Shown: positions 26,479 to 57,387, counted from the whole stretch's first letter. The stretch is DNA of 63,503 nt, filler included, from Conidiobolus incongruus B7586 (GCA_000697335.1; 11 parts of 11 records of this genome joined end to end with filler, not necessarily neighbours in it); one strand, 5' to 3'. Program-made: numbers and translations. The notes: a model not told the origin generated them from the letters alone.

Positions 26479-26804
26479 TTACCATGGAATCGAAGAAATG
26501 GGAAATTTTTTAATTTCCGATTTTTCAAACATATTATTAGTTTCAAATAAGCAAATATATACAAAACAAATAGGAAAATAAATAGTTTTGAATTATATAT
26601 ATATATATATATAATAATTTTTTTGATTAAAAAATGAATTTTTTAAAATTAGTTGTTTAATTTAATCATGCTTAAACCAAATAGTGACCATCAAAAGTCT
26701 TTTATTTTAGTATCAGTAAAACTTAACCACAAACCCTCTAAAATCATTCAAAATTTACAAACAGCTTTTGGTAATGAAGCATTATCTAAATCAACAATTT
26801 ATTG
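26479..26804 (+). mobile_element. Little-mutated mariner 5' end with open transposase N-terminus (gap-truncated)
   Basis: ATG 26668: MLKPNSDHQKSFILVSVKLNHKPSKIIQNLQTAFGNEALSKSTIY, a Mos1/SETMAR-type HTH; CpGs retained in the terminus (aatcgaag, ttccga). Confidence 0.85.
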
Positions 26805-28060: not shown

Positions 28061-29062
28061 ATTCCAAATATTTAAAATACAAAGTAATAATAATATAGAA
28101 TTTGATTAAAATCTAACAAAAAATATCTCTTAATTATAAATTAACAAAGCTATATTAAAATGAAAATAATATTAATTTAACTATTAAATTACAATAATTA
28201 GTAATTTAAAACAAAATAATATATTAATCAGAATAAAAATAAGAATAATTAAAAGGTAAAAAAAACCAAATTTATTAATTATATTTTATAAAATTATCTT
28301 TTAAAACTTTAATAATAAAAAAATTTAATAAATTAAAACTTGAAAAAAATAAGTTATATTAGAAAATTTATTAAAATTAAAAAATTAATTATTATTTTAA
28401 TATATATAATAATATAGATAATTAAAATATTTAATTTTATTTAAATAATAATTGCAATATTTAAATATTTTTTTGACAAAATATTATGAATTATTAATCA
28501 AAGTTTTTGCAATAATATTTGAAAAATTGAAGTTAATAAATTAATAAATTTATTAAATAATTATAGGTCCACAATATTTATCTAACCTATATAGTTATGA
28601 ATTATTAATAAAAAAAATAATTTTGAAAATGATAATATTATGATTATTATATCATTAATAGAAAGTATTTAATTTAAAATTATTTATATTTAATTATTTT
28701 ACTAAATAAAAAACTTATTCAAATATCATTCCACCTTTTATAAATTTAAAGGTTTTGATATTAATAATAATTTTAATAAATAAAAATTTAGAAATTATAA
28801 AATCAATTAACAAGTTTTGATTATTATATATTGTATATTTTAGGTAAATATATGTTATTTTCTTGATTTAAAAATGGAATTTTGTTGGATTGGATATATT
28901 TTATAAATGGTTAATTTAGGATTAATGATTTAATATTTGATGTAAAATTAAGCATTGTTTTTCAAACTAAATTGAATTCAGTCTAAATATATCCAAATTC
29001 ATAAATGATTGTGTTGAAGTTTGAAAAGAAAGTACTAATCCACTTTAGATGATAAAATAAAA

Positions 29063-35416: not shown

Positions 35417-36346
35417 TCATAAAAATTTTTTAAATTTATTAATAATAATACTTAATTAAAATTTTAAATATTCAATTATATTAAAGTTATAAAAAAATTA
35501 ATTAATTATGTAAAATTATTTGCTATTAAAAAAACTATTATTTATTATAGTCAATGGAATTAATTGCTATTAAAATCGTATCCTACTTCTAAGTTCTATA
35601 TATAAGTTATGGTATGGCTTTTATGAATTAATCTTGTTATTTGTTGCTACACTTTCATTAACATTACATACATTTATAGTGAGTTGCCAGATTAGAAACT
35701 ATTCATTTTGAGTATTATATTTTGAACAATTTTTATTTTAATTGTAATTATATGTATCAATTATCAAAAATTATATTTTTATAGACTTGATCCTTAACTG
35801 AATTTAGAATACTTAGTAGGTAAATAATTAATGAATTTTGATATACTACAATAAATATGTATTTTTTTCACACTTAATACAATGTAAATACTTAAAATAA
35901 CATTAATTTTATTCTATTTATCCATGATTAAGTTATTTTTATTAATATATTTTGATAAAATATCATAATTTTAAAATTTAGATTAAGACATTAATATTGA
36001 AATTTTTATCATTAGATGCTAAAGGTATTTTTATTGCTATTTCTGTTGATAAAAACAAATAAATATAATTAAAATAAAATCTTTTATATCTTTTATTTAA
36101 TAACCTCAATTTCTCAATTAAATTTTGATAATATAAAAAATTAAACTATATCTGAGATATAAATTTTTTTATAAAAAACTAATTATTTTTCAACTATTAT
36201 ATCAAAATTAAGCTATATGAGTTTTTCTAAATTGAGAACATTATAATATTTTTTTGTGTGTAATAAGTATAAATCTCAAATATACCAAAATTAGGTGATT
36301 ATTTAAATTTCATTTAAATATAAATTTAATAAATATAACTCTAATA

Positions 36347-36832
36347 TTAATATAAAAATTAAAAAATGGCAAATTTTTTAATTTCTGATCTTTCAAACAT
36401 ATTATAAATTTTGAAAAATTATTTATATATAGAATTTATAAAAAAATAAATATTTTCAAATTATATATATATATATTCAATTATAATAACTTTTTTCTTA
36501 AAATATTTTGATTTTAAAATTTATAATTAAATTTAATTATGTTTAAACTAGATAATGATTATTAAAAGGCTTTTATTTTTTATATTTTTAAAACTTAACT
36601 ATAAACCCACTAAAATTATTTTAAACTTATGAATAGTTTATAAAAATAATAATTTATTTATCACTACCATATATTATTAAATTTATGATTATAAAGCTAA
36701 AAAAACATTATTTAAAATTTATTAAAATTTAAAAAACTAATCTTTACTATTATTTTTTTACTTATCAATAAAATAAAAAATATATTAACAAATATTTTTT
36801 ATTTTAAATAAAAGATTATTAAAGTAATTTAA
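36347..36832 (+). mobile_element. Hypermutated mariner 5' part, gap-truncated
   Basis: aaatggcaaattttttaatttctgatctttcaaacatatta matches 26495-26535; the remainder is colinear with the transposase N-terminus. Confidence 0.82.
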
Positions 36833-36932
36833 NNNNNNNNNNNNNNNNNNNNNNNNNNNNNNNNNNNNNNNNNNNNTTAATTAATTAANNNNNNNNNNNN
36901 NNNNNNNNNNNNNNNNNNNNNNNNNNNNNNNN

Positions 36933-37800
36933 TAAGAATATTAATTAAAACTAATATTATTATATATACTTTATATTAATATTGATATCATATATATTTT
37001 AAGAAAAAATACCCTTAATTATAGAAATCATATTATAAGATTAAGTAAGAGTTTAAATATTATTGTTAATATTAATCTAAATTTAATTAAAATAAAGTTA
37101 TTTAATTTATTAAAATAAAAATATATTTTAATAAATTAAATCAAAAGTTTAAATATTATAAAAAAGATATAAAACTATTTTATAATAATTATATTAATTT
37201 TATTTAAAAATACAATAGTAAATTAATTATTAATTATGGATATATACTGTTTTTAAATATAAGATATCTTTATAAAGTTAATAAGGGAATTAATACTAAG
37301 TTATATTAAAATTCTATAGACAATAAATTAAAAAAACTATTGAATAATATAGGTTAAATAAAACTTATATTATTTTCCAACAAAATATTAACTTTTATTA
37401 TATTATTACTTTTATTATTAAATAGTTTAAAAATAACAAGATAATAGCTATAAAGTAGTTTTTTTAATCTTTTAATTTTAATCTAATTAAATATCTTTAG
37501 AATTAATTAAAGAAAGTTATTAAAATTTTCCCCTAATGAAAGATTTAAATTAACTTTAAGAATATATTAAAAAAGCAAAAAATTAGATTATCTTTTTTAA
37601 TATAAAAAGTTAATTGATTTTATACCTTATAAATTTAAAAAAATTAGAAAAGTTAAAGGTAGATAAAATAAGTTTTAATCTTGTTTTATTATCAAAAACT
37701 TATAAATTTATAACTTATTTTAAGTAAAATTGAAGGGTTGATATTTTAATTAATTAATAACTAAATATCATTATTTAATAATTTATAATATTGATAAATA
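36933..37800 (+). mobile_element. Hypermutated Tc1 (DD34E) partial copy
   Basis: Reverse-complement match to 37950-38720, including the ttattttccaacaaaat (IFQQD) region; ends where the next copy begins at a TA. Confidence 0.82.
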
Positions 37801-37802
37801 TA

Positions 37803-39074
37803 TACTAGCCTGAAAAGTGAGTCATAAAATTATGATTATATATATTATTATTAATAACTTTGTTAATCCTTAATCAAATTAATTTAAATTAAAATATATA
37901 GTAAAATTCTATTATTTATTTATAATTAAATATATTTGATCCAATTATATTAGCTTTTAGTTGATAAATTAAAGTTTAAATTATATCTAAGATAAGTTAT
38001 AAATTTGTGTATTTTTGTTATGAAAAGAGAATTAAAACTTAACATATTTACCTTTTGTTTTCCTAACTTCCTTAAGTTTATAGGGTATAAAATTAACTAA
38101 CTTCTTATATTAATAAGGATTAGTTTTGTTTTAAGCTTCTTAATTATATTCTTAAAGCTTATTTAAATTTTTTGCTGGTGGGAAAGTTTTAACTATTTTT
38201 TTTAACTAATCCCAAAGGTGTTTAATTAGATTAAGGTTAGGGGTTTGAAGAAGCCACTTTATAACTGTTATTTTATTATTTTTAAACCATTTGGTAGTAG
38301 AAATAATAGTATAGCAAAGGGTATTATCTTATTGGAAAATAACATCTGATTTATTTAACCTATACTATTCAATAGTTTTTTTAATTCATTGTTTAGAATA
38401 CTTTAGTATATTTTAGTATTAATTCCTCCATCAACTTTATAAAGATATTTTATAATAAAAGATAACATATATCCTTAAATTATAATTTACCCACTATTAT
38501 ATTTTTGGGTTAAAATAACATAATGGTTATAAAGTAATTCTTTGTCTTTTCTGAAATATCTAGCTTTTATATTAGATTTACTAAGATATATTTTTATTTC
38601 ATCAAATTAAATAACCTTACTCTAATTAGTTTTAATTCAACTTTAGTGGTGATATTTAAACTCATACCTAGTTTTACAATAGGACTTCTTTAGTTAAGGG
38701 TGTTTTTTCTTAAAGTATAAATGATATCTATTATAATATAAAACATGTATAGTAGTATTAATACTAACTAATATTCATATATAATCTTGTAATTCTTTTT
38801 ATACTTCTATAACAATATTATACTTATCTGTACTAACCAACCTATAAATATACCTTTCATTATATTTATCTATAATTTTAATATGCTTAAGTTTAGGTAT
38901 AGATATATCTTTATTATAATTTTTAATAGCTTTAGCTATAGTAGACTAGCTAACACTAGTAATTCCAGCAATTTCATAAGTTGATTTATTTTCATTATAA
39001 AGTTGATTAATATACAAGTGAATTTTTTTAGAGAGGGATTTAAGTATTTTAATACTAATATTATTTAAAATAAT
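37803..39074 (-). mobile_element. Hypermutated Tc1 (DD34E) copy, 5' end lost in a gap
   Basis: HTH ENKSTYEIAGITSVS*STIAKAI; VIFQ*DNTLCYT...KWLLQTPNLNLIKHLWD*LK (from FQQDNAPCH...WPPQSPDLNPIEHLW); 34 codons between the D and E positions; TA|tactagcctgaaaagtgagtcataaaat terminus. Confidence 0.92.
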
Positions 39075-39201
39075 NNNNNNNNNNNNNNNNNNNNNNNNNN
39101 NNNNNNNNNNNNNNNNNNTTAATTAATTAANNNNNNNNNNNNNNNNNNNNNNNNNNNNNNNNNNNNNNNNNNNNAAATACAAATGATTTTATAATATAAC
39201 T

Positions 39202-42200
39202 TATAAATATAATAGTAGTTTAGCTGACATAATATAAAGGAAAACTTAATATAAAAGTAATATGACACAGAATATGGTAATATAATGTAGAATATAATGT
39301 GGAAGTGTAAACAAAGTTTAATTAAGCTTTAAACTAAGATAAGTCACTGATATATTAAGATTTATATTAGCTAATTCTAATATGCTATATTATTGATAGA
39401 GTTTAGTTTCAATTTTAAGTATAATGTAAAAAATAAAAAATAATAAAAATTGAGAGAAAAAAGAAATACTTTATTCATTAGATAATTCAATGCTATTTAT
39501 ATAATTAATTTAGCTATAAATGTATAAATTAATTATATAATTTATAGTTAATTATATTATATAAAAGTATATATAAGGATTTAAAGAATTAGCCTCTTAA
39601 TACTCCCTTAGTAAATCTCTTAAAAGAGACATACTCCTTAGATTTTTACAAATAGGTATAATAAGCTAAGGTATTTTTAATATTTTCTAAAGGTTCTTAT
39701 ATAGCTTCTTTAATAAAATAACTTATTTATTTTATATAGAAATAGGGTTTGTTCTTAATAAACATAAATTTAATTATATAATTAATATAATATTCTTTTT
39801 CTCTATTTTAATTAATAATTAAATTGAGTTTTGGGGCTTTTAATTAATTAAAAAAAGTGTTAAAATCTTCAAAATAAGGTTTGATTTTATATATATGAAA
39901 GGTAAAGTTAAGCCTCAAAGTTAAAGGTAATTCTAAGATAGTATTTTTAAAATTTAAATTAATAAATTAAATTTTATAATGATTATAATATAATAGTAGA
40001 TATTTTAGATTTAAATTCTATTTAAGTAGAGTAAGTTTAAAGGTAAATTATTTTCAATATATAAATATATTTATTTTATATTTAAGAGGATTTTTAAATA
40101 ACTTTAAATACTATTATTTTATGATCCTTTAATTTACTTCTAAGTTAAATTTAATTAAGGAATTAATATATTTAATATTAGATTAAAATTTAATAACATT
40201 TAAAGATAAATTGATTTAAAGTTTCAAAGTAATTATTAAGTTAAAATATTTATTATAATTAATGAAGTAAAAGTTAAAACTAGTTGATTTATTAATAAAG
40301 ATGTTAAATAAATATTGAAGTTGATAAATATAAGTATTTTAATTTAACTGATTAATATCAATATAAGCTTTAATTATTTATTTTAAAGTTTTAATAGTTT
40401 TTTAACAAGTTTATTAGTTTAATAGTAATTAATAGTAGACATAATTAAGTTAATTTTAAAAGAAAAAGATAGTAACTTTTAAAATTAAGAGTTGAATTAC
40501 ATATCTTTATCTAATATAATAATTTGTAGAATTTTATAATAAGTAAAAATATTAGACAATAATAATTATATAATATCTTTAACTATAGAAGTTTTAAAAT
40601 AAGGAATAAAATAAACATATTTAAAAAATAAATTAATTACAATTAGTAAGTTATTATAACTATTTGTTGATTTAAGAATTTTTATGAAATTTAGTTAAAT
40701 TTATTATTAAGTTTCATTTGGGATTTGTAAAAAAATAAGTTCATTATATTTTAATTAAGTATTATACTTAATTCTTTAATATATATCATAAGTATTAATA
40801 TATTTCTAAACTAATTTAACTAAAGAAAGTTAGTAATACTTTATTTTAATTTTCTTAACAATCTTTAATTAATTTTAATATCTTTTAACTAGTAAGTTAT
40901 AGTATTTATTAAATATTATTTATTGAATATTAAGAATATTAAAGATATATAAAAAATCATTATAACATAATAAGTTATCAATAATTTTAAATTTTTTAAC
41001 ATATTTTAATTAATTTTTTAATGGTTTAAAAAGTTTTTCTTTGATTAAGATAAAAAAATCATTATTTAATAATGTTTCTTAAAGTAGTTTAATAAATTCT
41101 TTATTTTTTTATTAATAATCATTAAATTAATATTTGTTGTGTTTTTACAATTAAAACAAAAGGGTAAATATGTAAAATTTTTTAATAAAGTATCTATAAC
41201 ATAATTTTATTAGCCTAAGAAATATTAAATAAGAAAAAGGTAAGCTTGAATAATTTTAATTTATTTAACTTATCTTCTTGATAAATGTTTTTAAATATTT
41301 AATTAGATAAGTGATTTATTATTTATAAAAGTTAAAAAAAGTTATAAAATAAAAATTATGAATGATTTTTAATTATTTTTATTAAAGTAAAGAGTTTTTA
41401 TTTATAGATTAGATATTTTAATTCAGCTAGTTCTATTTTTCTTAACTAAAATATTATTAACTTTAAGATAATATTTATAGGGTTAAACTTAACTTATTCT
41501 CCCTTATTTATTATTTTATTTAATAGTTAAAGGGTAAAATATAAATTAAATTCAAATTAGGTTAACTATTTATTAATTACAAAAAAGTTAAAGTTAGTAA
41601 ATATAATAGTAAGTAATTTTAAATTAAAAATAAATAAGGTAAAAACATTAGTAATATAAAAAATTAAAGCATTTATATAAAAAGTATATAATAGGGTTTA
41701 TTTAAAAAGAAAGTCTTTTTTCAAGAGGTTAGTTAGAAAAGTTATAAGTTTAATAAAAGAATCAATAAAATCTTTAAAATAATTTAATAATTTAAATATA
41801 TACCTAAGTTAATTTTTTTTATAAGTATAATAAAAGCTTTAACACCACTTAGTTTAATAAAATTAATGTTAATTTTTTAAGAAAAAATAATATAACCACA
41901 GAAAAAAATAGAAGTAGCATTAAAAATATATTTAAATGATTTTAAAGGTAATTTAAATTCTTAAATAATTTATAAAACTTAATTAACATGTTAAATATAT
42001 TCTTTAGTTTTTAAATAAATTAAAATATTATTAAAGTAAATAATAATAAAGTTATTAAAAATAAGATTAAAAAAAGAATTGATAATTTAAGTAAAAGTTA
42101 TAAGGGTAATATATAACTTAAAGTTTATAATAATAAATTTATAATAACTTAAATATATATTGAAAATAGTTAGAGGAATAGAATTTTCTTTAACTTTAAT

Positions 42201-44886
42201 GTTATAGTACCTATTTTTAACATTTAACTTAATAACAACAGTTAATTTAAGTAATTTATCTTTAATATTATATAAGTTAAGTAATAAAGTTTTATCCTTG
42301 AAAATTTTAAAGTTTAAAACATAATTATCAATATATATTCATTAACCACCATTAACCTTTTATATAAAGAAGATTAAAAATCCTTATAATAATGAAAAAA
42401 GTTTAATATATCTATTTTCAAGTAATTTTTAAATTTTTTCTTTTAAGGTTTAATATTATTCAAGAGATAAATAGTAAGTAAACTTTAAGTATAGTTGTAT
42501 ACTAAAGAGAAATTTAATTTTGTGTTTAATATTATATTTAATAGGTAATTTACATATAAGTTTAAAAATATTAGTAAATTAACTTATTATATTATATAAG
42601 AAGTGGTTATTAGATATAACTATATTAAAATTAATAGATAAAGTGTTAATAAATGAATAATAAATAAATATATATCCTTATAAATTATTTAAGTTTTTGA
42701 TTAGCTTTTTATATTAATTTTTAATTATTATGATAAAGTTATTTAATACAATTATAAAGTTAATATTAGGTAAAGAATTTAATAGTTTTATAATAAGGTA
42801 ATATAGATTTTTGTAGATTAATTCTACTAATTTCTTATAGAAAGTAAAAAAAATAGATTTATAATCTTTTAAAGTCATATTTGTAAATATAAAACTATAA
42901 TATTTAAATTAATTTTAACCTAATATAAAATTATAACTAATGTTACCAACTAAAAATTTAATATATTAAGAGTAATTAAAAAATAGTTAAAGGTATTTAA
43001 ATATAATATTAGATGCTGATTCTATTAAGTTATTAGTATACTTAATTATTAAGTTATTTTTTAAATAGGTAAAGATAATTTTAAAATAATAAAAAAAAGA
43101 TAATATAATTAAAACAACTAAAGTTAATTAAAAAATTAACAAGTATGTCTATAAAAAAATTAATTAATATAAACAATAAAATAATAGTTAAAGGTAAAAA
43201 ATTATAAAGTAGATTATTAACTAAAATATTTTTAGTTTTTAATAATTTAATAAGTTAAATTTCTCTAGTATATATAGTTTAATTTATGGAATTATTGGTT
43301 TATTAAAACTTTTGAATTGAATTAAAATTTGTTAATTAATTATAAAAGGGATGATTTTAAAATTATATTAATATTATTTAAGTTTGATTTATGGTTAGTA
43401 AATTAAAACTGTTGAAAATTAAATTAATATAGCATTTTAAAGGGACATTTATCAATTTTATAGTTAACTTAAGTTTTTCAAAAATAATAATAATATTTAT
43501 TTATTCTTCAATAAGCTTTAGCTTCTTTATTAAATGTTTTCTTATAAAGTTTGAAAGCAAAAACATCTATTATTTAAGATTGAAATAAGTTAAAATAAGT
43601 TTTAAGGATTAATTCTTAAGATAGAAAGATTTAATTATAAAATAAAAGATATTATTAATTATAATTGTTATATCACAAATATTAGATAAATACATATTGT
43701 TAAAATATTCTTTATTAATTAATTAAAGCTTTACTTAAATATAAAAATATTATAATAATTTGTAGATTTATTCTTTTCTAGTTATATTTAATATATTTAA
43801 TTATATCTTATTAAATTTCTTAATTAATTATCTTATAAAAGTTTTTTATTTAAGTTAAAAAAGCTTTTCTTTTATTAATCAAACTTAATCTTTTAAGTAA
43901 TACCTTTTTTTAAATGCTTTTTCTAATAATTTAAAAGTTTATATTTTTATAATAGGTTATCCCTTTCAAGATTTTTTAAGATTAAACTTATAATAAGTTA
44001 ACTATTAAATATAAATAGGTTTTTCTAAAAAAAAATGGTTAATTTAAGGATATTTTTTAAATCTTTATTAAAAATCAAATCAAGTTAATTCTTTATGTTT
44101 TTAAAGTAATTTTCAAGTTTGTAGAGGTTTTTTGAGTTATTATAAATAGCTAATTTATATTTAAAAAAATTAAAGAGATGGTTTAATATATTAATTATAA
44201 TAAAATAATTGGTTTAATAAATTTAAACTTTTTAAGTTATGTTTTTTCAATCAAAAATAATTTAATATAAGCTTTTTAGAGGGTAATAAGCTTTTAAAAA
44301 CTAAAGTTTTAAATTCACTTAATAATTAAACTACCATCATTTTTAAAATAATATAAAGGTATCTCTTTTTTTAGTGGTATTAGAGTATATAATATTCAGT
44401 TAAAATAAAATAAGTTATAAATAAGGTTTAAAATAATAATAAATAGGTTAGATATAAATAGTTATTAATTTCTAGTAAGTTTCAAGTAGTTTTCTTATTG
44501 TTACTATATAATACAATGGTAGTTAAACTAATATAATATAAAAGAAAACTTAATATAAAAATAATATGGTATAAAATATAATGTAAAAGTATAAATAAAG
44601 TTTAATTAAGCTTTAAACTAAGATAAGTTACTAATATATTTAGATTTATATAAGGTAGTGTTAATATACTATATTATTAATAAAGTATAGTTTCAATTTT
44701 AAGAATATTGTAAAGAATAAGAAATAGTAAAAATTGAGAGAAAAAAGAAAAACCTAGTTTATTAGATAATTCAATGTTATTTATATAATTATTTTAAATA
44801 TAAAAGTATAAATTAATCATATAATTTATAGTTAATTGAATTATATAAAAATATATATAAGAGTTTAAAAAACTAGTCTTTTAACA
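39202..44886 (-). mobile_element. Full-length hypermutated Ty3/gypsy chromovirus, copy A (5685 bp; LTRs 44507-44886 and 39202-39602)
   Basis: Two direct LTRs; the 5' LTR begins TGTTAAAAG on the minus strand; perfect 5-bp TSD TAACT (39197-39201 and 44887-44891); purine tract taagggag before the 3' LTR; the internal region is the reverse complement of copy B. Confidence 0.95.
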
Positions 44887-45222
44887 TAACTAATTATTAT
44901 TAGTTAATAAATATATATAATTTGAAATTATTTAATTTTTTTTTATTTAATTAATATTTGATTATTTAAAATTAATAATGAATTTAAAAAAAATTAAAAA
45001 GTTTTTATTTTTTCAAATTTAAAATAATATTATATTTTTATATTATATATTAATATTAATATTTTATAAAGTATTATTAAATTTATAATTAATTCTATTA
45101 AAGGAGATATTTTGATCAAAATNNNNNNNNNNNNNNNNNNNNNNNNNNNNNNNNNNNNNNNNNNNNTTAATTAATTAANNNNNNNNNNNNNNNNNNNNNN
45201 NNNNNNNNNNNNNNNNNNNNNN

Positions 45223-48200
45223 TATATAATTCAATTAACTATAAATTATATAATTAATTTATACTTATATAATTAAATTAATTATATAAATAACATTGAA
45301 TTATCTAATAAACTAGGTTTTTCTTTTTCCTCTCAATTCTTACTATTTTTTACTTTTATATTATTTCTTAGATTGAAATTATTTTTTGTTCATATTATAG
45401 TATATTGGCATTACCTAATATAAATCTTAATATATTAGTGACTCCCCCTAGTTTAAAGCTTAATTAAACTTTATTTATATTTGCATATTATAACTATGTT
45501 ATATTACTACATTCTATATCATATTACTTTTATATCAAGTTTTCCTCTATATTATATTAGTTTAACTACCATTATAGTTATATAGTAATAATAATAAAGC
45601 TATTAAAAACCTATTAGAAATCAATAACTATCTGTATCAGATTTATTTATTATTATTTTAAATTTTATCTATTATCTATTTTATTTAAATTTAACACTAT
45701 ATACTATAATACCAATAAAAAAAGATACCCTTATACTATTTTAATAATGATAATAGTTTAATTACTAAGTGAATCTAAGACTTTAACCTTTAAAAGTTTA
45801 TTACCCTTTAAGAAACCTATATTAAACAACTATTAATTGAAAAAAAACATGTTTCAAAAAGCTTAAATTTAATAAACTAGTTATTTCATTATAATTAATA
45901 TATTAAACTATCTCTTTAATATCTTTAAAAGTAAATTAGCTATTTATAATAGTTTTAAAAACCTTTATAAGCTTGAAAACTACCTTAAAAATATGAAAAA
46001 TTACTTTGTTTTAATTCCTGATAAAAATCTAAAGAATATCTTTAAATTAGCCACTTTTTTTGGAAAAATCTATTTATACCTAGTAGTTAACTTATTATAA
46101 GCTTAATCTTAAAGAATCTTCAGGAGGATAATTTACTACAAAGATATAAACTTTTAAATAATTGGAAAAAGCTTTTAAAGAGAGATATTACCTTAAAAAT
46201 CAAATTTAATTAACAAGAGAAAAGTTTTCTTAACTTAAATAAAAAACTTCTATAAAATAATTAACTAAGAAATTTAATGAGATATGTTTAAATATACTAA
46301 ATATCACTAAAGAAAAATAAATCCACAAACTATTATAATGCTTTAATCTTTAAGTAAAGCTTTAGTTAGTTAGTAGGGAATATTTTAATAATATATCTTT
46401 TTCTAATATTTATAATATAGCAATTATAATTAATAATATCCTTTACTCTATAATTAAATCTTTTAACCTTAAGAATTAATCTTTTAAAATTTACTTTAAC
46501 CTACTTAAGTTTTAAATAATAAATGTTTCTACTTTAAAACTCTATAAGAAAACCTTTAGTAAAGAAGTTAAAACTTATTTGAGAGTAAATAAAAGTTGTC
46601 ATTATTGTTAAAAAACTTAAGTTAACTATAGAGCTAATAAATACCTCTTAAGGAAACAACATCTACCTAATTCTTAATAATCCCAACTTATTAATTATAA
46701 ATCAAACTTGAATAATATTAATATAACCTTAGAATCACCTCTTTTATAATTAGTTAGCAAGTTTTAATCTAATCTACAAAAGTTCTAATAAACTAATAAT
46801 TCCACAAATTAAACTATATATATTAGAGAAATCTAATTGATTAAACTATTAAAAACTAAAAATACTCTAGTAACTAATTTACCTTGTAATTTTTTACCTA
46901 TAACTATCATATTATTATTTGTGTTAATTAATTCTTTTATAGATAAATTTGTTAAAATTTTAATTAATTCTAGTTGCTTTGGTTGTATTATATTTTTTTT
47001 ATTATTGTAAAGCTATCTTTACCTATTTAAAAAAATAACTTGATAATTAAATATATTAATAACTTAATAGAATAAACATCTGGTACTATATTTAGAAACT
47101 TATCATTATTTCCTAACTACTCCTAATATATTAAATTCTTAGTTGGTAATATTTGTTATAATTTTATACTAGGTTAAAATTAGTTTGAATATCAAAGTTT
47201 TATATCTATAAATATTACCCTAGAAGGTTACAAATTTATTTTTATTATATTCCAAAAAAAATTAATGGAATTAATCTTAAAAAATCTATATTACCTTATT
47301 ATAAAATTATTAAATACTATACTTAACATTAACTCTATAATTGTAGCAAATAATTTTAATATTATAAACAAAAATCAATGTAAAAAACTAGTTAAAAACC
47401 TTAATAATTTAAAAAGATATATATCTGTTTATTATTTATCTATTAATATTTTATCTATTAACTTCAATAAAGTTATATCTAATAATTACTTTTTATATAA
47501 TACAATAAGTTAATTTGCTAATGTTTTTAAATTTGTAGATAAATTACCTCTTAAATATAATATTAATCATAAAATTAAATTATTCACTAGTATATAACTA
47601 TATTTAAAGTTTATTTACTATTTATCTCTTGAATAATATTAAAGTTTAAAAGAAGAAATCCAGAAATTACTTAAAAATAGGTATATTAAACCTTCTTCAC
47701 TATAAAAATCTTTAATTCTCTTTATATAAAAAGCTAATGGTGGTTAAAAACTATATATTAACAATTATGTTTTAAACTCTAAAACTATTAAAGATAAAGC
47801 CCTATTACTAAACCTATATAATATTAGGGATAAATTATTTAAATTAAGTATATTCATTAAATTAGATGTTGAGAATAAATATTATAACATTAAAGTTAAA
47901 GAAAATTCTATCCTTTTAATTACTTTCAATACTCTTTTAAGCTATTATAAATTTACAGTTATAAACTTTAGATTGTGTATTACCTTTATAACTTTTACTT
48001 AATTTATTAATTCCCTTTTTAACCTTGTTTTTAATAACTTTATTATTATTTACCTTGATAATATCTTATTCTATTTAAAAACTAAAGAAAAATATATTTA
48101 ATATATTAATTAAATTTGACAAATTATTCAAGAACATAAATTACCTTTAAAACTATTAAAATATATCTTTAATGCCTTTTCTATCTTCTTCTATAGTTAT

Positions 48201-50868
48201 ATTGTTTTTTCTTAAAGAATTAATATTAATTCAACTAAACTCAATGATGTTAAAGCCTTTACTATATTTATAAACAAAGATTAACTTATGTTTATACTTA
48301 GATTATTAAATTACTTTAAAGATTTTATTGATTCTTTTGCTGAATTTATTATTCTTTATACTAATCTTTTAAAGAAAAACTCTCTGTTTAAATAAACCCT
48401 ACTATATACTTTTTATATAAATGCTTTAATTTTCTATATTACCAATGTTTTTGTTTTATCTATCTTTAATCCAAAACTACTTACTATTATTTTTATTAAC
48501 TTTAGTTCTTTTGTAATTAATAGATAATTAGCCTAGTTTGAATTTAATTTATATTTTACCTTTTAACTATAAGATAAAATAATAAATAGGGGAGAATAGG
48601 TTGAGTTTAACTTTATAAATATTACCTTAAAACCAATAATATTTTGGTTAAGAAAAATAAAACCAGCTGAATTAAAATACCTAGTTTATAAATAAAAACT
48701 CTTTGCTTTGGTAGAAATAATCAAAAATCACTTATTTTTCTTGTTTTGTAACTTTTTTTTAGTACTTACAGATTATAAATTATTCATTTATTTAAATACT
48801 TAGAAGTATTTATTAAGAGGATAAGTTAGATAAATTAAAACTACCTAAGTTTATTTTTTTTATTTAATATCTCTTAGGTTAATAAAATTATGTTATAAAT
48901 ACCTTGTTAAAAAATCCTACATATTTATCCCTTTATTCTAATTATAAAAACCTAGCAAATATTAACTTAATAAATATTAATGAAAGAAATAAAAAATTTA
49001 TTAAACTATTTTAAGAAACACTATTAAATAATAATTTCTTTATTTTAGTTAAAGAAGAACTCTTTAAACTATTAGAAAACTAATTATAATATGTTAAAAG
49101 ATTTAAAATTATCAATAACCTATTATATTATAATGATTGTCTATATGTTCTTGATATTCCCAAGATCTAACAAACAATATTTAATGAATACTATAATTTA
49201 CTTGTTGGAGGACATTAAAACTAGTTAAAAACTGCTAAAAGAATTAAAATAAAGTACTACTAACCTTCCTTAGTTAAATTAGTTTAGAAATATATTAATA
49301 CCTGTGATATTTGTTAAAGAACTAAATATAATACTTAACTAAAATATAGTAAACTTATTCTTTTATAAGTCCCTAATAAAACTTAACAACAAATCTAGCT
49401 TAATTTTATAGAAATCCCTAAATCAATAAATAATTATAATAACTTAATAATTGTAATTGATTTATTTTCCAAATATGTTTATTTTATTCCTTGTTTCAAA
49501 ATTTCTATAACTAAAGATATTGCATAATTATTATTCTCTAATATTTTTACTTACCACAGAATTCCACAAACTATTATATCTAATAGAGATATGTGATTCA
49601 ACTCTTAATTTTAGAAGTTACTATCCTTTTCCCTCAATATTAATCTAACTATATCTATTATTAATTATCACTAAACCAATAAATTGTTAAAAAAACCATT
49701 AAAACCATAAAGTAAATCATTAAAGCTTATATTAACATTAATTAGTTAAATTAAAATACCTATATCTATCAACTCTAATATTTATTCAATATCTTTATCA
49801 ATAAATCAACAAGTTTTAGCCTTTATTTTATTAATTATAGCAAATATCCTAACTTAATAATTGCTCTAAAACTCTAAATCAACTTATCTTTAGATATTGT
49901 TGAATTTTAATCTAATATCAAGCATATTAATTCCCTTGTTAAATTTAACTTAGAAGAAAATTAAATGATTATAGAATAACAATGCTTAAAGTTATTTAAA
50001 AATCCTCTTAAATATAAAATTAATATATTTGTATATTTAGAACAATTAACCCTTAAACCTACCCTATTTAAATCTAGCTTAAAACTAAAATACTTACTAT
50101 TATATTATAGTCTTTATAAAATTTAATTTATTGATTTAAATTTTGAAAATATTATTTTAGAATTAGTTTTAACTTTAAAGATCAACCTTACCTTTCATAT
50201 ATCTAAAATTAAACCATATTTTGAAGAATTTAATATTTTTCTTAATTGATTAAAAGCCCCAAAACTAAATATAACTATTAATTAAAATAAAGAAGAAGAT
50301 TACTATATTTATTATATAATTAAATCTAAATCTATTAGGAATAAGCTTTATTTTTATCTAAAATAGATAGGTTATCTTATTAAAAAAGCTATATAAGAAC
50401 CCCTAGAAAATATTAAGAATACCTCAGCTTATTATACCTATTTACAAAAATCTAGGGAGTGTGTCTCTTCTAAGAAACTTATTAAAGGAGTATTAAAAGA
50501 CTAATTCTCTAAATTCTTATATATACTTTCATATAATTTAATTAACTATAAATTATATGATTAATTTATACCTATATAGTTAAATTAATTATATAAATAG
50601 CATTGAATTATCTAATAAACTAGGTTTTTCTTTTTTCTCTTAATTACTATTTTTTACTTTTATATTACTGCTTATCAATATTATAATATATTAGCACTAT
50701 CTAATATAAATCTTAATATATCAATGACTCACCCCAGTTTAAAACTTAATTAAACTTTATTTATATTTGCACACTACAACCACATTATATTACCACATTT
50801 TACACCACCTTACTTTTATATCAAGTCTTCCTCTATATTATATTACTTTAACTACCACTATATTTATA
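45223..50868 (+). mobile_element. Near-full-length hypermutated Ty3/gypsy chromovirus, copy B (LTRs <45223-45582 and 50491-50868)
   Basis: RT KANGG*KLYIN (from KADGGWRLCID, ~47730) and YLDNILFY (from YLDD, 48051); RNase H PAELKYLVYK*KLFALV; integrase VGGH / TCDIC*RTK / PQTIISNRD; chromodomain YLK*IGY...AI*EPLENI (~50355-50415); domain order RT-RH-IN-CHD. Confidence 0.95.
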
Positions 50869-51160
50869 ATTATAAACAAAATTTTTAGATAATTATTATT
50901 TGACTTAAATATAATAAAATTTAAATATAAATTATTAATTAAGGATATTTTAATATAAAGATAGTCATAATATATATATTTATATTTAAAAATATTAATT
51001 TTTGAATATATTTTATTAAATTTTTTTTATAACATTAATACTATATTGGAAAAATCAAATNNNNNNNNNNNNNNNNNNNNNNNNNNNNNNNNNNNNNNNN
51101 NNNNTTAATTAATTAANNNNNNNNNNNNNNNNNNNNNNNNNNNNNNNNNNNNNNNNNNNN

Positions 51161-53956
51161 AAATGAAAATGAAAGGTAAAAAATTATAAGATAAATTAGT
51201 TATTAGAATATTTTTAGTTTTTAATAGTTTAATAAGCTAAATCTCTTTAGTATATATAATTTAATTTATAAAATTATTAGTCTACTAAAACTTTTATAAA
51301 TTAATTTAAAACTTACTAATTAAATATAAAAAAAATTTTAAGATTATATTAATATTATTTAAATTTGATTTATAATTAAAATATTAAAATTATTGAGAAT
51401 TAAACTAATGTTGTTTTTTTAAAGGATATTTATTAACTCAATAGTTAACTTAAGTTCTTTAGTAGTAATAGTAACCTTTATTAACTCTCAAATAAATTTT
51501 AATTTCTTTATTAAAAGTATTCTTATAAAGCTTCAAAATAAAAACATTTATTATTTAAGATTTAAGTAAATTAAAGTAAATTTTAAAGGATTAATTTTTT
51601 AAATGGGAAAATTTAATTATAAAATAAAAGATATTATTAATTATAATTATTATATCTTAAATATCAAAAAAATATATTATCATTATATTTTTTATTAACT
51701 AAATAAAAATTTATTTAAAAATTAAAGTATTATAATAATTTATAAATTTATTCTTTTTGAGTGATATTTAAATATTTAAATATATCTTATTAAATTTCTT
51801 AAATAATTACCTTATAAAAGTTTTTATTTGAGTTAAAAAAGCTTTTTTTTATTAATCAAACTTAATTTTTTAGGTACTACTTTTTTTAATGGTTTTTCCC
51901 AATTGTTCAAAAGTTTATATTCTTATAGTAGGTTATCCTTTTGAAGATTATTTAAAATTAAAGTTATAATAAGTTAATTACTAAATATAAATAAATTTTT
52001 CTAAAAAATAGCTAATTTAGAGATATTTTTTAAATTTTTATTAAAAATTGAATTAAATTTATTATTTATATTTTTAAAGTAGTCTTTAAGCTTATAAAAG
52101 TTTTGAAAAATATTATAAGTAATTAATTTGTCTTTAAAAAACTAAAGAAGTAATATTATATATCAATAATATTAAAATAATTAGTTTGTTAGATTTAAGC
52201 ATTTCAAGTTATATTTTTCTTAACTAAATAATCTTTAAAATAGGTTTTTTAAAAGGTAATAAGTTTTTAAGGATTAAAGTTTTAAATTCATCTAATAATC
52301 AAGTTATTATCACTATTAAAATAATATAATGGGATTTTTTTAATAATATTATAATATATTAACTTGCAAAAATAAGTCATAAAATCAAAAAAACTAATAT
52401 TTTTACTAATAACTTGATTAATATTTAATGAAATAAACCTAAATTTAATAATTAAAATCTATTATATTTATTAATAATATATATCATTAAATGATGATAT
52501 TTAGTTATTAATTGGTTAAAATATAAACCCTTCAATCTTATCTAAAGTAAGTTATAAATTTTTAGGTTTTTGGTGATAAAAAAAATTAAAACTAAGTGTA
52601 TCTACCTTTAGCTTTTCTAACTTCTTTAAGTTTATAGGGTATAGAATCAATTAACTTCTTATATTAAAAAGGGTTAATCTTATTTTATGCTTCTTAAACA
52701 TATTTTTAAAACTAATTTAAATTTTCTACTAGGGGGAAAGCTTTAATAGCTTTTTTTAACTAATGCCAAAGATATTTAATTAGGTTAAAGTTAAGAGATT
52801 GAGGAAGCTACTTTATAATTATTATCTTGTTATTTTTAAACTATTTGGTAATAAAAGCTATAATATAGCAAAAGCTATTATATTACTAGAAAATAACATT
52901 AAATTTGTTTAACTTATATTATTTAATAGTTTCTTTTAATTTATTATATAGAATACTTTAATATATTTTAATATTAATTTCCCTAATAACTTTATAAAAA
53001 TATTTTATACCTAAAGATAATATAGATCCCTAAATAATAATTAACCTATTATTATACTTTTAGGTAAAATTAATATGATAGTTATAAAATAATTCTGTAT
53101 CTTTTCTAAAATATTTAGATTTTTTATTAAATTTACTAAGTTATATTATTATTTCATTAAATTTAATAACTTTACTTTAATTAGTTTTAATTTAATATTA
53201 GTAGTGATATTTAAACTCCCATTTAGTTTTACAATGAGATTTCTTTAGTTAGGGGTGTTTTTTCTTAAAATATAAGTGATATCTATATTAATATAAAATA
53301 TATATAATAGTATCAATATTAAGTAATATTCTTACATAGTCTTATAATTCTTGTTATATTTCTATAATAATATTATACTTGCTTATATTAACTAACCTAT
53401 AGTTATACTTCTTATTATATTTATTTAAATCTTAATACACTTAAGTTTAAGTTTAAATATGTCTTTATTGTTATTTTTAATAGCTTTAACTATAATAAAC
53501 TAACTAACACTAGTAATTCTAGCAATATCACAAGTTGATTTACCTACTTTATAAAGTTAATTAATATATAAATAAATTTTTTTAGAGAGGGATTTAAGTA
53601 TAATAATATTAATAAAAAGAATTTAATATATCTATAAAATATTATATAAAATAATAGCAAAAAGAGAAAAAAGATATGGTTATATATTGTTAAATATATC
53701 CCTTTATCTCAAAAACCCACAAATTTATAACTCATCTTAGTTAAATATTAAAGGTTGATATTTTTGCTAATAGTTTACTAAATATATCTAAATATATTTA
53801 TTTATTATTAAACAATATATTTTAATTATATATTATAGTTTTAAATAAACTAATATATATAATTATTTTGGTTATTAATTAAAATATATATATATTTTGA
53901 TTTTATGACTTATTTTTGCAAGTTAGTATATATAATATTAAATTTAAATAAAATAA
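51161..53956 (-). mobile_element. Third gypsy copy C (gag region), split by a Tc1 insertion and bounded by gaps
   Basis: 51161-52356 is colinear with ~43185-44390; the sequence resumes at 53929-53956 (tatataatattaaatttaaataaaataa, cf. 44387-44413). Confidence 0.88.
52357..53928 (-). mobile_element. Full-length hypermutated Tc1 (DD34E), 1572 bp, TA TSD, ~220-bp IR/DR termini, nested in gypsy copy C
   Basis: Left end tattaacttgcaaaaataagtcataaaatcaaaa versus right end ttttgattttatgacttatttttgcaagttagta; inner inverted match between ~52515-52580 and ~53705-53770; transposase remnant *LPQSLNFNLIKYLW. Confidence 0.93.
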
Positions 53957-54056
53957 NNNNNNNNNNNNNNNNNNNNNNNNNNNNNNNNNNNNNNNNNNNN
54001 TTAATTAATTAANNNNNNNNNNNNNNNNNNNNNNNNNNNNNNNNNNNNNNNNNNNN

Positions 54057-55312
54057 ATTTTCATATATAATATATAATATAGATATATAATATAAATTTA
54101 ATATTTCTTTTATTATTAATAACTTTTTGTTATATTTTTAGCAAAGATTTAATACCTAAAAAATAATTCTTTTTATTAAAGACTAAAATTTGATATTTTA
54201 CAAACTAATTAAATTTTTATATAAATATTTTGTTTTTTATAAGCTAGTTTTTTAATTACCTAAAGCAATTATAATTATATAAGGTATAATCTAAAGAATA
54301 TACCAGATATAGTAGTTTTTTCTAGTTATTTTTAATTTGAAAGTTTTTTATAACTTTAGATTTATATATTTTATTATTATTATATAAAATAATAAGTCTG
54401 CTTATATTATATAAAAGATACTGATTAAAAATACTTTTATTTAAAAAAGTAAAATAAAGTATATTATTGATAAATTTTCCTTTAAAAACTAAATAAAAAT
54501 AGTATATACTATGATAATCTATTATAATAATTAATATTCACTTATTAATAAAATACTTATTTAAAAAGATTTATAAAAAAGATTAATTTAATTTAATTTA
54601 ACATTTTGATTTATGTTTTAATAAAAGATTATATATAAAGATTTAAGATTTATCAATTACAATTATATACTATAAAAGTTTAAGCTTCTAGTAATATTTT
54701 AGTAAGTTTTGTCTAATAATAATTACTCTAGCTTTTTTAAGCTTTAGTTAAATTATAAGGTACTTATTTTATATTTTTATTTATTAATTTGAGTTTAAAC
54801 TTTAATATATATAAAATACTTATATAACTAATATTAAAGTGTCTTGATAATTCTTTAGCTGAAATAAGAAAGTATTTTTCAATATGTTTTTTTACTTTAT
54901 TAATAATTAAAAGAGTAATAGTTGAAATTAATCTTTTAGATTTTGGTGGGTTTTGGGTAGTTTCTCTTTTAACCTTAAAGTAATTTACCCAGTGATAAAT
55001 TATTGATTTAGATAGTATTTTATTATTATAAGCTATTTATAAATTTTAAATAATTTTAAAGAGCTTATAGTTAAGTTTTATTAATATTAAAATAAAAGAC
55101 TTTTAATGATAATTATTTAGCTTAAATATAATTAAATTAAACAACTAATTTTAAAAATTTAATTTTTTAATCAAAAAAACTATTATATATATATATATAT
55201 TAAAAATATATAATTTCCTATTAACTTTGTTTTTATTTATTTATTTCAAACTAATAATATATTTGAAAAATTAGAAATTAAAAAATTTCCCATTATTTCA
55301 AATTTAAGTTAA
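54057..55312 (-). mobile_element. Hypermutated mariner (DD34D), nearly full length
   Basis: Reverse complement of 26479-28010; motif LLYLVYSLDYTLYNYNCF; terminus followed by TA at 55313-55314. Confidence 0.9.
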
Positions 55313-57387
55313 TATTTTGATATTTTGATATTTGGATTGATTAGCAAGAAATTAAGAATTATTAAAGAGTTTGATATTATTTTGTCTGATAATATGTTAA
55401 TAATTAACTCATTCAGATTTGTAACCAATAATCAATATTTTAGAATACAAACAGTAAAATTAATAACCTGATAAAAACACTGTTTATTATACCAAAGTAT
55501 TATTCTTAATGTTATAATTAGACTGTAATATTTCACTTTTAATATAAATTATAATAAATTTATTAGAAATGAGAATCAATACATTAATAACAATATACTA
55601 AATTAAAAAAGTATTTTATTAACATAAATACTATAAAATATATAAGTAATATATTGAATATAAAATTAGTTTAATCAAACCAGAGTTCATTAAATATCAA
55701 AATTTTTAATTAAAATTTGATAAGACTTCAAAATGATTTTAAAACTGGTAATATATTATTACAATTTTGGGGCAGAGTAATATTAAACCATCATTATAAC
55801 TTTATTTTGTTAATATAACTTCAAAAGTCATTTTATTCGTAAAAGTAAACCCTAACTGCACCCTATACAAAGAGATTTTACTTTCCTTCGGGCAATTATA
55901 AGGGCTAAGTAGATCTTTTAATTGCAAGGACACCACTTGCATTTATAGACTGCTATGAGGATATTCTATTAAGATAAAATACATAAAAAATATTAATTTT
56001 TGATATTTTTATAATATATGAAATATCTGTAGTTTATATTATTAGATTACATTTAATTAAATTCTTGATTTGTGTTATAATTATTCAATATTTATTGATT
56101 TATTTTTGTTAATTAATCTTATGTTACAAAATATTATTGATTGTTTCTTCGATATCCTGTTTCATAATAATTATTACAACGACTCGATAATAATATAATC
56201 ATACTCGGGGTATATAAAGTATAGTGGTATATCAGCTAAATGCTGTTATTTATACTATAAAGTTTCATCAATTGAATCAAAAGGTGCTTTGCAATGACAA
56301 TAAATTAGGTACGAATGTGAATAATTTGAAAAAAGCTTAATGTGTGTCTGCAGTGAAATGTGTAATCGTGATTATCGTTTTAATTATTAATGGAGAATTA
56401 TTTCAAATATTAAAAGAATATTTTATTCAAAAACAATTTGATTGATTTTACCTAATAATTAAGGTAGATATTTAGTTGAATATTCGAATCATTTAATGCA
56501 TAAGCGATTGGTTTCATTTAAATCTAAATGTAAACCAATACCTCTTATATTTGATAATAAGTTATTAATATCTTATTTAGAATAAAATATTGATATAAAA
56601 TTCTTGTAATTATTGATATTGAAAATTTCCTAATTTAGATTAGAAAATAAAATTTAAAATTATTTTAATCACCTCATATATAATTAACAATTTTAAATTA
56701 AGATTGAGAACTGATTTGACATTATATCAATAAATCCCCTATAATATACAAAATATTATCGTAAAGACATTATGATATTACAAGAAATAACTAGGTGAAT
56801 TTGATTAATTTTACAAGTTCAAGTTTTTACTTTGACTCAAATATTATTATGTGTTTAAGTTTCAATTAATCAAATCTGAAATTTATAAATATTAACTATT
56901 TGGTTTCTTAATTCAAATAGCTAAGAGGAAGAGGTGTAATATTTTGTATCAGAGTATATCTTTCTAAAACAATATATCTCCTTATTCAAAAATTTAATAT
57001 AATTTGATTAAATTCCAATTTTTAAAGTAATAAAAAATCATATGAAAATGAAAAAAATTTACATCATAATTATAATAAGTATATATACTATTCCGTCATT
57101 ATAATAGCATATCAATTATATTATATTATCCTTTGAAAATATTATTTCGATTAACAAATTGTTAAACTAATATCAAAATCAAAAAAAATATTAGTTATTT
57201 GAGCATTAAACACTAATCATTCAATAATCAACTATTTTCTCCACAATTTGATTCACCCTACCATAATCCCATAAAAATCCAAATTATCGATTTAAAATAA
57301 ATCAAAACAGTGACAAGTCCCTGAATCTTAATTATTAATTTTTTATAAATTAATTATTATACAAATTGAAAAAAAATATAAAAAATA

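What the first reader, a model, noticed from the sequence alone, without database searches (positions are those of the whole stretch)
36347..55312. RIP-like repeat-directed C->T hypermutation acting on three unrelated transposon families in an apparently non-ascomycete fungus
Seen: gypsy, Tc1 and mariner copies largely keep colinearity and catalytic spacing (DD34E, DD34D), yet most conserved residues are altered as C->T/G->A predicts (D>N, E>K, W>stop, Q>stop, P>L, H>Y, A>V, C>Y). Both mutation types occur in each copy, I could find no CpG in these copies, and sibling copies are hit at different positions. Neighbouring genes are unaffected. Known: this is the signature of repeat-induced point mutation, demonstrated experimentally in filamentous ascomycetes (RID/DIM-2 dependent), with RIP-like patterns described in some basidiomycetes. 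Inference: the host looks early-diverging, so this may be a mechanistically uncharacterised homology-triggered genome defence. It affects DNA transposons too, so it is not reverse-transcription-coupled APOBEC editing. Index-based RIP-like signals may already be reported for the lineage; I cannot check that here.
Basis: partly seen in the sequence, partly recalled or inferred. Interest (0 to 1): 0.88.

Follow-up and report, generated by a model that had tools for sequence, protein, structure and literature searches.

The report
Transposon C-to-T hypermutation in Conidiobolus fungus
Dead transposons in this early-diverging Conidiobolus fungus have lost every CG and over half of their other cytosines to C-to-T changes, while genes and a nearby dead gene have not, likely because a DNA-methylating enzyme targets repeats; a recent kingdom-wide survey found such a scar only in ascomycete fungi.

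Summary
The host groups with Conidiobolus coronatus (RACK1 89% identical, support 100/99), so it is an entomophthoralean, not an ascomycete. The interval has 0 CpG in 18,466 bases (106.7 expected) and CpA O/E 0.60, against 1.09 in unique non-coding DNA. At protein-constrained sites the two gypsy copies lost 89/122 and 68/122 C/G by C>T or G>A, while 1/106 and 0/106 A/T sites changed. A pseudogene in the same window is a neutral control: 37/154 C/G lost, no context bias, CpG kept. Per A<->T change the gypsy copies carry 13-22 times its C>T load. Context order is CpG >= CpA > CpT > CpC. Genome-wide AT drift and CpG-only decay are refuted. RIP proper is not shown: there are no strand-biased tracts, and timing, homology trigger and enzymes could not be tested. 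Best reading: a DIM-2/DNMT1-class methylase mutating repeat chromatin (0.55); an episodic, homology-triggered RIP analogue is the rival (0.30). An index-only RIP signal is published for Zoophthora, in the same order; my searches found none for Conidiobolus.

The parts
39202..44886 (-). Gypsy/Ty3 LTR retrotransposon copy A, full length, two LTRs of about 390 bp, 5-bp target duplication; heavily C>T/G>A mutated
   Evidence: Target duplication and ends; tblastn to intact relative P0275; 89/122 constrained C/G sites mutated
45223..50874 (+). Gypsy copy B, 5' LTR cut by a scaffold gap; RT-RNaseH frame unbroken over 422 codons but with 22 stops
   Evidence: 68/122 constrained C/G sites mutated; 83% identical to A, 736 transitions vs 180 transversions
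51161..52359 (-). Gypsy internal fragment C
   Evidence: About 80% to A and to B; three-way patterns
52360..53925 (.). Tc1-like DNA transposon with both terminal inverted repeats (31 bases perfect including TA), transposase on the minus strand, dead
   Evidence: 154 transitions vs 84 transversions against the 38-kb copy
37806..39060 (-). Tc1-like copy, D-34-K in place of D-34-E
   Evidence: Pfam HTH_Tnp_Tc3_2 6e-5, DDE_3 0.04; spacing
36933..37802 (+). Tc1-like fragment, inverted to its neighbour
   Evidence: 82% to the 52-kb copy; 112 transitions vs 42 transversions
54057..55316 (-). Mariner-like copy, dead
   Evidence: 85% to 26915-28035, 121 transitions vs 44 transversions
36343..36832 (+). 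Mariner-like left end, older and more decayed
   Evidence: Alignment A1; 30/55 C/G sites mutated
26905..28097 (+). Mariner-like copy outside the finding, D-34-N in place of D-34-D, no CpG
26482..26804 (+). Barely mutated mariner left end (open 45-codon frame, 2 CpG kept); used to polarise the family
   Evidence: HTH_48 E 0.003; siblings keep C/G where it has T/A at only 2/131, 4/174, 4/174 and 8/159 sites
24299..25278 (-). Aminotransferase pseudogene, about 66% to its paralogue; neutral control that is NOT hypermutated
   Evidence: 9 in-frame stops in the aligned part, 24 CpG, 37/154 C/G and 21/188 A/T constrained sites changed
5087..6195 (+). RACK1 gene (two exons), places the host
   Evidence: 89% to Conidiobolus coronatus, next best 78%; tree 100/99

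Best explanation
The transposon copies have lost all CpG and over half of their other cytosines to C-to-T changes on both strands, likely because a DIM-2/DNMT1-class cytosine methyltransferase methylates repeat chromatin in all contexts and the marked cytosines then turn into thymine. Shown: the loss is directional, confined to multicopy transposons of two classes, 13-22 times the neutral background, equal on both strands, and ordered CpG >= CpA > CpT > CpC. Inferred: (1) new insertions are recognised as repeats (by heterochromatin, small RNA or pairing; not distinguished); (2) a relaxed-specificity methylase marks them; (3) deamination, spontaneous or enzyme-assisted, fixes T one site at a time over many divisions; (4) every reading frame dies while length and order are kept. 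No methylase gene and no 5mC was seen.
For: Direction: 89/122 and 68/122 constrained C/G sites vs 1/106 and 0/106 A/T sites (130 of 150 columns kept). Family-wide, 984 of 1068 variant places are transitions when one run's contigs are laid on copy B (that run may be the source of the window). Excess over neutral DNA: C>T per A<->T is 97 (73-130) and 61 (45-82) in the gypsy copies vs 4.5 (2.4-9.3) in the pseudogene. Contexts, gypsy against P0275: CpG 8/8, CpA 62/76 codon-fixed, CpT 73/134, CpC 44/102 codon-fixed. Contexts, mariner against its barely hit copy: CpG 9/12, CpA 62/94, CpT 29/62, CpC 11/36. Pseudogene: CpG 1/8, CpA 13/45, CpT 5/36, CpC 12/42. Independent hits: no same-strand runs and no strand contrast in 12 of 12 tests, clustering along the copy in 1 of 12. 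Precedent: Dim2 raises C>T in TEs more than tenfold during mitosis in Zymoseptoria (PMC8016269). Dim-2 is reported in early-diverging fungi (PMC7862722). Entomophthorales carry PF00145 proteins, those of E. muscae in the RID-sister orthogroup being over 1200 aa, and the authors decline to call them RID homologues (PMC11105155). Masc1/RID was found only in Dikarya, apart from one likely bacterial transfer in Batrachochytrium (PMC5751038).
Against: The load does not grow as a steady clock would. The LTR pair of A differs at 16/265 A/T sites and that of B at 4/258 (p 0.01), yet transitions make up 34/65 and 30/68 of their C/G columns. A constant-rate model gives P 4e-5 at a 3.9-fold age ratio but P 0.10 at 2-fold. 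One mariner copy is nearly untouched beside siblings only 2-3% apart at A/T sites that lost 52-56%. The Zymoseptoria Dim2 mutator is over 98% CpA and spares CpG, unlike this spectrum. 5mC is said to be scarce in Zoopagomycota (PMC11258239). No genome was held, so no methylase could be sought.
Confidence: 0.55

Rival explanations
1. A true RIP analogue: DNA-DNA homology sensing triggers bursts of C>T mutation in any long duplication, probably at the zygospore or resting-spore stage, and stops once copies fall to about 80% identity.
For: Front-loaded load: LTR pairs of different age carry similar transition shares. The younger copy pairs sit at 80-85% identity. One barely hit copy lies among heavily hit siblings. 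Paralogues and a pseudogene at about 66% identity are spared. CpA is the hottest non-CpG context. Composite RIP index is positive in all 18 1-kb windows from 37001 to 55000 and in 2 of the other 45. Index-based RIP of 24.2% in Zoophthora radicans.
Against: No strand-biased tracts, though many rounds would erase them. CpG is lost completely, which PMC4352252 assigns to a methylation process rather than RIP. RID is not reported in Zoopagomycota. The plateau could come from site-to-site rate differences: kept sites are shared between copies (odds ratio 5.2). Part of the A<->T distance of the old mariner copies is third-position, pre-insertion divergence (7/12, 7/9).
Confidence: 0.3
2. A cytidine deaminase (AID/APOBEC-like or other) is recruited to repeat DNA and deaminates cytosines without methylation.
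For: All four contexts are hit, and C>T far exceeds C>A (57% vs 4% of C/G columns).
Against: The preference lies in the 3' neighbour (CpG, CpA), while the 5' neighbour hardly matters (0.55-0.66); known APOBECs read the 5' base (own knowledge). Both strands are hit and DNA transposons too, which excludes editing of reverse-transcription intermediates.
Confidence: 0.06
3. Ordinary CpG-only 5mC decay (basidiomycete Masc2/DNMT1 type) on top of background AT drift; the apparent CpA/TpG hits are old CpG sites.
For: CpG is gone entirely; former CpG sites can look like CpA or TpG.
Against: Codon-fixed non-CpG sites (H, Q, W, C, M for CpA; P, G, W for CpC) are mutated at 62/76 and 44/102, and against the barely hit mariner copy at CpA 62/94. 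The neutral pseudogene shows 13/45 at CpA although it is older by the A/T clock.
Confidence: 0.04
4. Genome-wide AT-biased mutation acting on old, unselected transposons, or an assembly artefact.
For: The genome is AT-biased: the pseudogene implies an equilibrium GC of about 15%, close to the 19% of unique non-coding DNA.
Against: Unique non-coding DNA of similar GC keeps CpG (167 in 27.7 kb, O/E 0.66) and CpA (1.09). The gypsy copies are younger than the pseudogene by the A/T clock yet lost 2-3 times more C/G (Fisher 1e-7 and 3e-16). Frames and colinearity are kept, and the bias recurs across the family. The control rests on one pseudogene.
Confidence: 0.03

Closest known systems
Repeat-induced point mutation (RIP) of Neurospora crassa and other Pezizomycotina (RID/DIM-2), including the CpA+CpG variant of Aspergillus niger, A. 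fumigatus and Tuber melanosporum (PMC4352252, passages)
   Same: C:G>T:A on both strands, confined to repeats of unrelated type, CpA strongly hit, frames killed by stops while colinearity is kept, positive composite index
   Different: Host is Zoopagomycota; CpG is lost completely; no strand-biased tracts seen; RID, premeiotic timing and homology trigger not shown
Dim2-dependent mitotic C>T mutator of Zymoseptoria tritici (PMC8016269, passages)
   Same: TE-confined, methylase-linked, needs no sexual cycle, strong CpA>TpA
   Different: There over 98% of changes are at CpA and CpG is spared; here CpG is gone and CpT and CpC are hit at about 30-55%; no Dim2 gene could be sought here
Index-based RIP signal in Entomophthorales: Zoophthora radicans 24.2%, Entomophaga maimaiga 5.7%, Entomophthora muscae 2.4% (PMC11105155, passages and supplement table 1b)
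   Same: Same order, same claim that RIP-like mutation may act outside Dikarya
   Different: That work used dinucleotide indices only and left Conidiobolus and Neoconidiobolus out of its RIP panel; here the direction, contexts and excess over a neutral control come from alignments
CpG-signature C>T decay of TEs in basidiomycetes with Masc2-class DNMT1 (Microbotryum, rusts; PMC4352252)
   Same: Loss of CpG in transposon copies without RID
   Different: Here non-CpG sites carry most of the load

Membership tests
RIP (Neurospora type) | C:G>T:A transitions dominate in repeats, on both strands | tested here: met
RIP (Neurospora type) | Acts on repeats of unrelated sequence and spares single-copy or diverged DNA | tested here: met
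   Gypsy, Tc1 and mariner hit; genes, unique non-coding DNA and a 66%-identity pseudogene spared
RIP (Neurospora type) | CpA preferred over the other contexts | tested here: inconclusive
   CpA is the top non-CpG context (62/76) but CpG is 8/8 and absent from 18.5 kb; saturation hides their order
RIP (Neurospora type) | Processive, strand-biased mutation tracts (recalled feature of single RIP rounds) | tested here: inconclusive
   No same-strand runs in 12 of 12 tests, clustering in 1 of 12; many rounds would hide tracts
RIP (Neurospora type) | Triggered by DNA homology of any long duplication, transposon or not | not testable with these tools
   No long non-transposon duplicate above 80% identity in the window; no genome held
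RIP (Neurospora type) | Occurs premeiotically in the sexual cycle | not testable with these tools
   Needs progeny sequencing
RIP (Neurospora type) | Depends on RID/Masc1 | not testable with these tools
   No genome; literature finds Masc1/RID only in Dikarya
Dim2 mitotic mutator (Zymoseptoria type) | C>T excess confined to transposons | tested here: met
Dim2 mitotic mutator (Zymoseptoria type) | Almost only CpA mutated, CpG spared | tested here: not met
   CpG gone; CpT 73/134 and CpC 44/102 mutated
Dim2 mitotic mutator (Zymoseptoria type) | Functional dim2 gene and non-CG 5mC on TEs | not testable with these tools
   No genome, no methylome
CpG-only 5mC decay (Masc2/DNMT1 type) | Mutation restricted to CpG | tested here: not met
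Host outside Dikarya | Conserved genes group with Zoopagomycota | tested here: met
   RACK1 89% to C. coronatus, sister with 100/99 among 23 rows; no ascomycete is named among the 120 best of 5293 hits, so none was in the tree; NDUFA12 best named hit Neoconidiobolus, 60%

The most novel reading that the evidence does not exclude
Conidiobolus runs a RID-independent, homology-triggered repeat mutator: RIP, or its ancestor, predates the split of Zoopagomycota from Dikarya (or arose twice) and is carried out by a DIM-2/DNMT1-class enzyme. It has been missed because k-mer screens are blind in genomes whose intergenic DNA is already over 80% AT.
Probability: 0.3. Interest if true: 0.88.

Novelty: new variant of a known kind. 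Interest (0 to 1): 0.63.

Why it matters
A 2025 survey of 1,239 genomes concluded that only ascomycetes show RIP-like signatures and scored Conidiobolus coronatus 'no_rip' (PMC12543289). This close relative shows a repeat-confined C>T load as heavy as in RIP-active fungi, with direction and rate fixed by an internal neutral control. A within-window version of that survey's k-mer test misses it (0 of 16 qualifying 4-mers), which suggests such screens under-call AT-rich early-diverging fungi. It strengthens the index-only hint from Zoophthora. It also makes an open question testable: is mutational genome defence an ancestral property of fungal DIM-2/DNMT1 methylases, with RID as a later add-on? 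Conidiobolus species grow in culture (own knowledge), unlike most of their obligate relatives.

Tried and rejected
No whole genome was held, so no genome-wide copy alignment and no search for RID, DIM-2, DNMT1, DNMT5 or deaminases was possible. Two window proteins are not in the protein collection by exact match. DNA of intact relatives was not obtained: P0275 and P0001 found nothing in metagenome contigs, P0275 nothing in viral contigs. The barely hit mariner fragment found no homologue. No RNA holder was listed. Two runs of another sample laid nothing on the gypsy copy, which proves no absence. Per-site retention across the genome's copies remains unmeasured. Summed contig depth on the gypsy copy (thousands, against 4-16 for single pieces) suggests many copies but is no copy number. 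Unpolarised context shares were set aside in favour of polarised ones, since sites hit in both copies vanish from them. A CHG preference (CAG 36/40, CTG 25/40, CTA 239/356 vs CTT 198/375) is confounded by neighbouring mutations and is not claimed. An edge-protection effect was looked for and is one-sided. The load-versus-age plateau in mariner copies was discounted because part of their A<->T distance predates insertion. Reverse-transcription-coupled editing is rejected: DNA transposons and both strands are hit. Literature searches that found no alignment-based report for Conidiobolus. Not seen, and possibly bearing on novelty: the closed supplements of bioRxiv 2025.06.16.659975 (per-genome RIP calls), the Zenodo data of PMC12543289 (Dim2/Rid1 presence per species), and Bewick et al. 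2019 (cited, not read).


Full report
SETTING. The window is a scaffold of 11 contigs joined by ten 100-base spacers; five spacers lie inside the finding. No whole genome is held. RACK1 exon 1 is 89% identical to Conidiobolus coronatus, the next of 5293 hits 78%, and the two form a 100/99 pair in a 23-row tree whose backbone is unresolved and holds no ascomycete. The best named NDUFA12 hit is Neoconidiobolus (60%). The host is thus a relative of C. coronatus (Entomophthorales, Zoopagomycota), not that strain; I did not determine the species.

ANATOMY. The interval holds a full-length gypsy element A (39202-44886, minus strand, two LTRs, 5-bp target duplication), a near-complete copy B (45223-50874), a fragment C, three Tc1-like copies (one with both 31-base terminal repeats) and two mariner pieces. 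Pfam supports RT, RNaseH, integrase and Tc1 transposase (5 of 16 frames scanned hit a family) and a Mos1-type HTH. B keeps one frame over 422 codons but with 22 stops, 18 of them TAA. Catalytic spacing is D-34-K (Tc1) and D-34-N (mariner). More copies lie elsewhere in the window.

COMPOSITION. There is no CpG between 35577 and 55838. The finding has 0 CpG in 18,466 bases against 106.7 expected, and CpA/TpG O/E 0.60. All repeats of the window: GC 15.3%, CpG 0.15, CpA 0.65. Unique non-coding DNA: GC 19.1%, CpG 0.66, CpA 1.09. Genes: 0.70 and 1.12 (gene bounds set by hand, repeats by self-BLAST). The composite RIP index is positive in 20 of 63 1-kb windows, 18 of them from 37001 to 55000.

DIRECTION AND SIZE. 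A vs B: 736 transitions and 180 transversions over 5619 columns; A<->T differences at 116 of 4330 A/T columns. With 150 intact homologues, 150 conserved columns gave: A 76 explained only by C>T/G>A, 0 reverse, 21 other, 53 unchanged; B 60, 1, 20 and 69. After dropping 20 columns that need two or more other changes, obligate C/G sites were mutated in 89/122 (A) and 68/122 (B), and obligate A/T sites in 1/106 and 0/106; the filter lowers the A/T count, so rates below use the unfiltered A<->T figure. Against the closest intact relative P0275 alone: 195 codons forward-only, 21 reverse-only, 164 identical, 271 neither, of 655 aligned. For mariner, a barely mutated copy at 26482-26804 polarises four siblings: 21/40, 31/55, 30/55 and 29/54 C/G sites lost, with 2/131, 4/174, 4/174 and 8/159 reverse changes (a poorly aligned AT stretch left out). 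Tc1 could not be polarised, but its pairs show the same context ranks. Contigs of one run laid on B show 984 transitions among 1068 variant places; that run may be the window's source and the tool did not count all differences.

NEUTRAL CONTROL. The aminotransferase copy at 24299-25278 is a pseudogene (9 stops in the aligned part). At sites fixed by its two intact paralogues it lost 37/154 C/G by transition and changed 21/188 A/T; it keeps 24 CpG and shows no CpA or CpG excess. Its spectrum implies an equilibrium GC near 15%, so background AT drift is real. But C>T per A<->T is 4.5 (95% 2.4-9.3) there, against 97 (73-130) and 61 (45-82) in A and B: an excess of 22-fold (10-43) and 13-fold (6-27). 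Caveats: this is one pseudogene, and part of its change may predate its death.

CONTEXT. Gypsy: CpG 8/8, CpA 62/76 (codon-fixed) and 126/156 (as seen), CpT 73/134, CpC 44/102 and 5/14. Mariner: CpG 9/12, CpA 62/94, CpT 29/62, CpC 11/36. The 5' neighbour hardly matters. So CpG-only decay is excluded, and the order CpG >= CpA > CpT > CpC is what a relaxed CpG-type methyltransferase would give (own knowledge). Copies share hits more than independence predicts (odds ratio 5.2), from context, wider site effects, or residues wrongly assumed ancestral.

TIMING. Hits fall equally on both strands with no same-strand runs in 12 of 12 tests; one test of 12 shows clustering along the copy. This fits one-at-a-time accumulation or many RIP rounds. 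Against a steady clock: the LTR pairs differ 16/265 vs 4/258 at A/T sites but 34/65 vs 30/68 at C/G columns; a constant-rate model is rejected at a 3.9-fold age ratio (P 4e-5) but not at 2-fold (P 0.10). The barely hit mariner copy shows that unmutated copies persisted; it ends at a gap and could be a collapsed young subfamily. The evidence does not settle burst versus clock.

MECHANISM. I commit to a DIM-2/DNMT1-class methylase acting on repeat chromatin, followed by deamination (0.55), over a homology-triggered RIP analogue (0.30), a deaminase (0.06), CpG-only decay (0.04) and drift or artefact (0.03). Shown: repeat confinement, direction, size, contexts, strand symmetry. Inferred: methylation, the enzyme, how repeats are recognised, and when it acts.

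WHAT IS KNOWN. PMC11105155 (passages, supplement table 1b): composite-index RIP in Zoophthora radicans 24.2% and lower in three relatives; Conidiobolus not in that panel; methylases not claimed as RID homologues. PMC12543289 (abstract, sections 8-9, passages, supplement rows): ascomycetes unique; C. coronatus 'no_rip', though its row lists 0 repeat pairs of 1 kb at 95-100% identity and 555 at 80-95%, which could reflect the same process or assembly collapse. A within-window imitation of that k-mer test passes 0 of 16 qualifying 4-mers. bioRxiv 2025.06.16.659975 (passages): RIP-proficient genomes almost all ascomycetes; supplements closed. PMC8016269 (passages): Dim2 mitotic mutator. PMC4352252 (passages): CpA/CpT tied to RID, CpG to Masc2. 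PMC5751038 (passages, supplement rows): RID distribution. PMC7862722, PMC11258239 and PMC13297926 (passages): methylase distribution and scarce 5mC in Zoopagomycota. Eight literature searches found no alignment-based report for Conidiobolus. Earlier notes of this scan describe similar patterns in Endogonales and Dimargaris; they are unchecked, but if real the trait is widespread outside Dikarya, which favours an old methylase-linked process and makes this locus less singular.

VERDICT. Real, strong and well controlled. It works like RIP in outcome but cannot be filed as RIP. It is a new variant of a known kind that contradicts a recent kingdom-wide restriction and backs an index-only hint from the same order. 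Interest 0.63.

Noticed in passing
window 26482-26804: A mariner left end that is almost unmutated (2 CpG, open frame) next to heavily mutated siblings; a recent insertion or a collapsed young subfamily. DD34D-spaced mariner in a fungus; no homologue found for the 45-residue piece.
   Followed up: partly
window 21985-22818: A GC-rich stretch (35-45% GC, 21 CpG in its two parts) bounded by TGTCA...TGACA and spanning a scaffold gap; looks like the LTR of another, unmutated retroelement. Copy number unknown.
   Followed up: partly
window 24250-25500, 29063-30343, 33926-35416: Cluster of three class I/II aminotransferase paralogues at about 66% DNA identity; two intact, one a pseudogene.
   Followed up: yes
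window 36833-54056: Contig ends beside gaps overlap at about 80-85% identity rather than 100% (e.g. 26621-26803 vs 26915-27097), so repeat-ended contigs may be mis-ordered in the scaffold.
   Followed up: partly
window 39202-39600 and 50491-50874: Near their outer end the 3' LTRs keep more C/G than the same stretch of the 5' LTRs (8 vs 1 and 9 vs 2 in one of six bins), and the Tc1 terminal repeats match perfectly; no matching effect at the other end. Possible edge protection, post hoc.
   Followed up: partly
window 23200-23300 and 2151-2414: Old Tc1/mariner-like scraps (YSPDMNP-type motif, recognised by eye; no Pfam hit); the 23.2-kb piece keeps its prolines and a CpG, so not every transposon remnant is hypermutated.
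   Followed up: no
window 21295-21590 and 31843-32157: A two-copy 300-base duplicate of unknown nature, 74% identical, with CpG kept and no CpA bias.
   Followed up: partly
window 17421-18431: Secreted-looking protein with a weak AA9 (LPMO) match (E 5e-4), a Pro/Gln/Thr linker and a cysteine-rich C-terminal module.
   Followed up: no
P0125/P0275: An intact close relative of the gypsy pol exists on short JGI contigs of unknown host, showing that the family is alive somewhere.
   Followed up: partly
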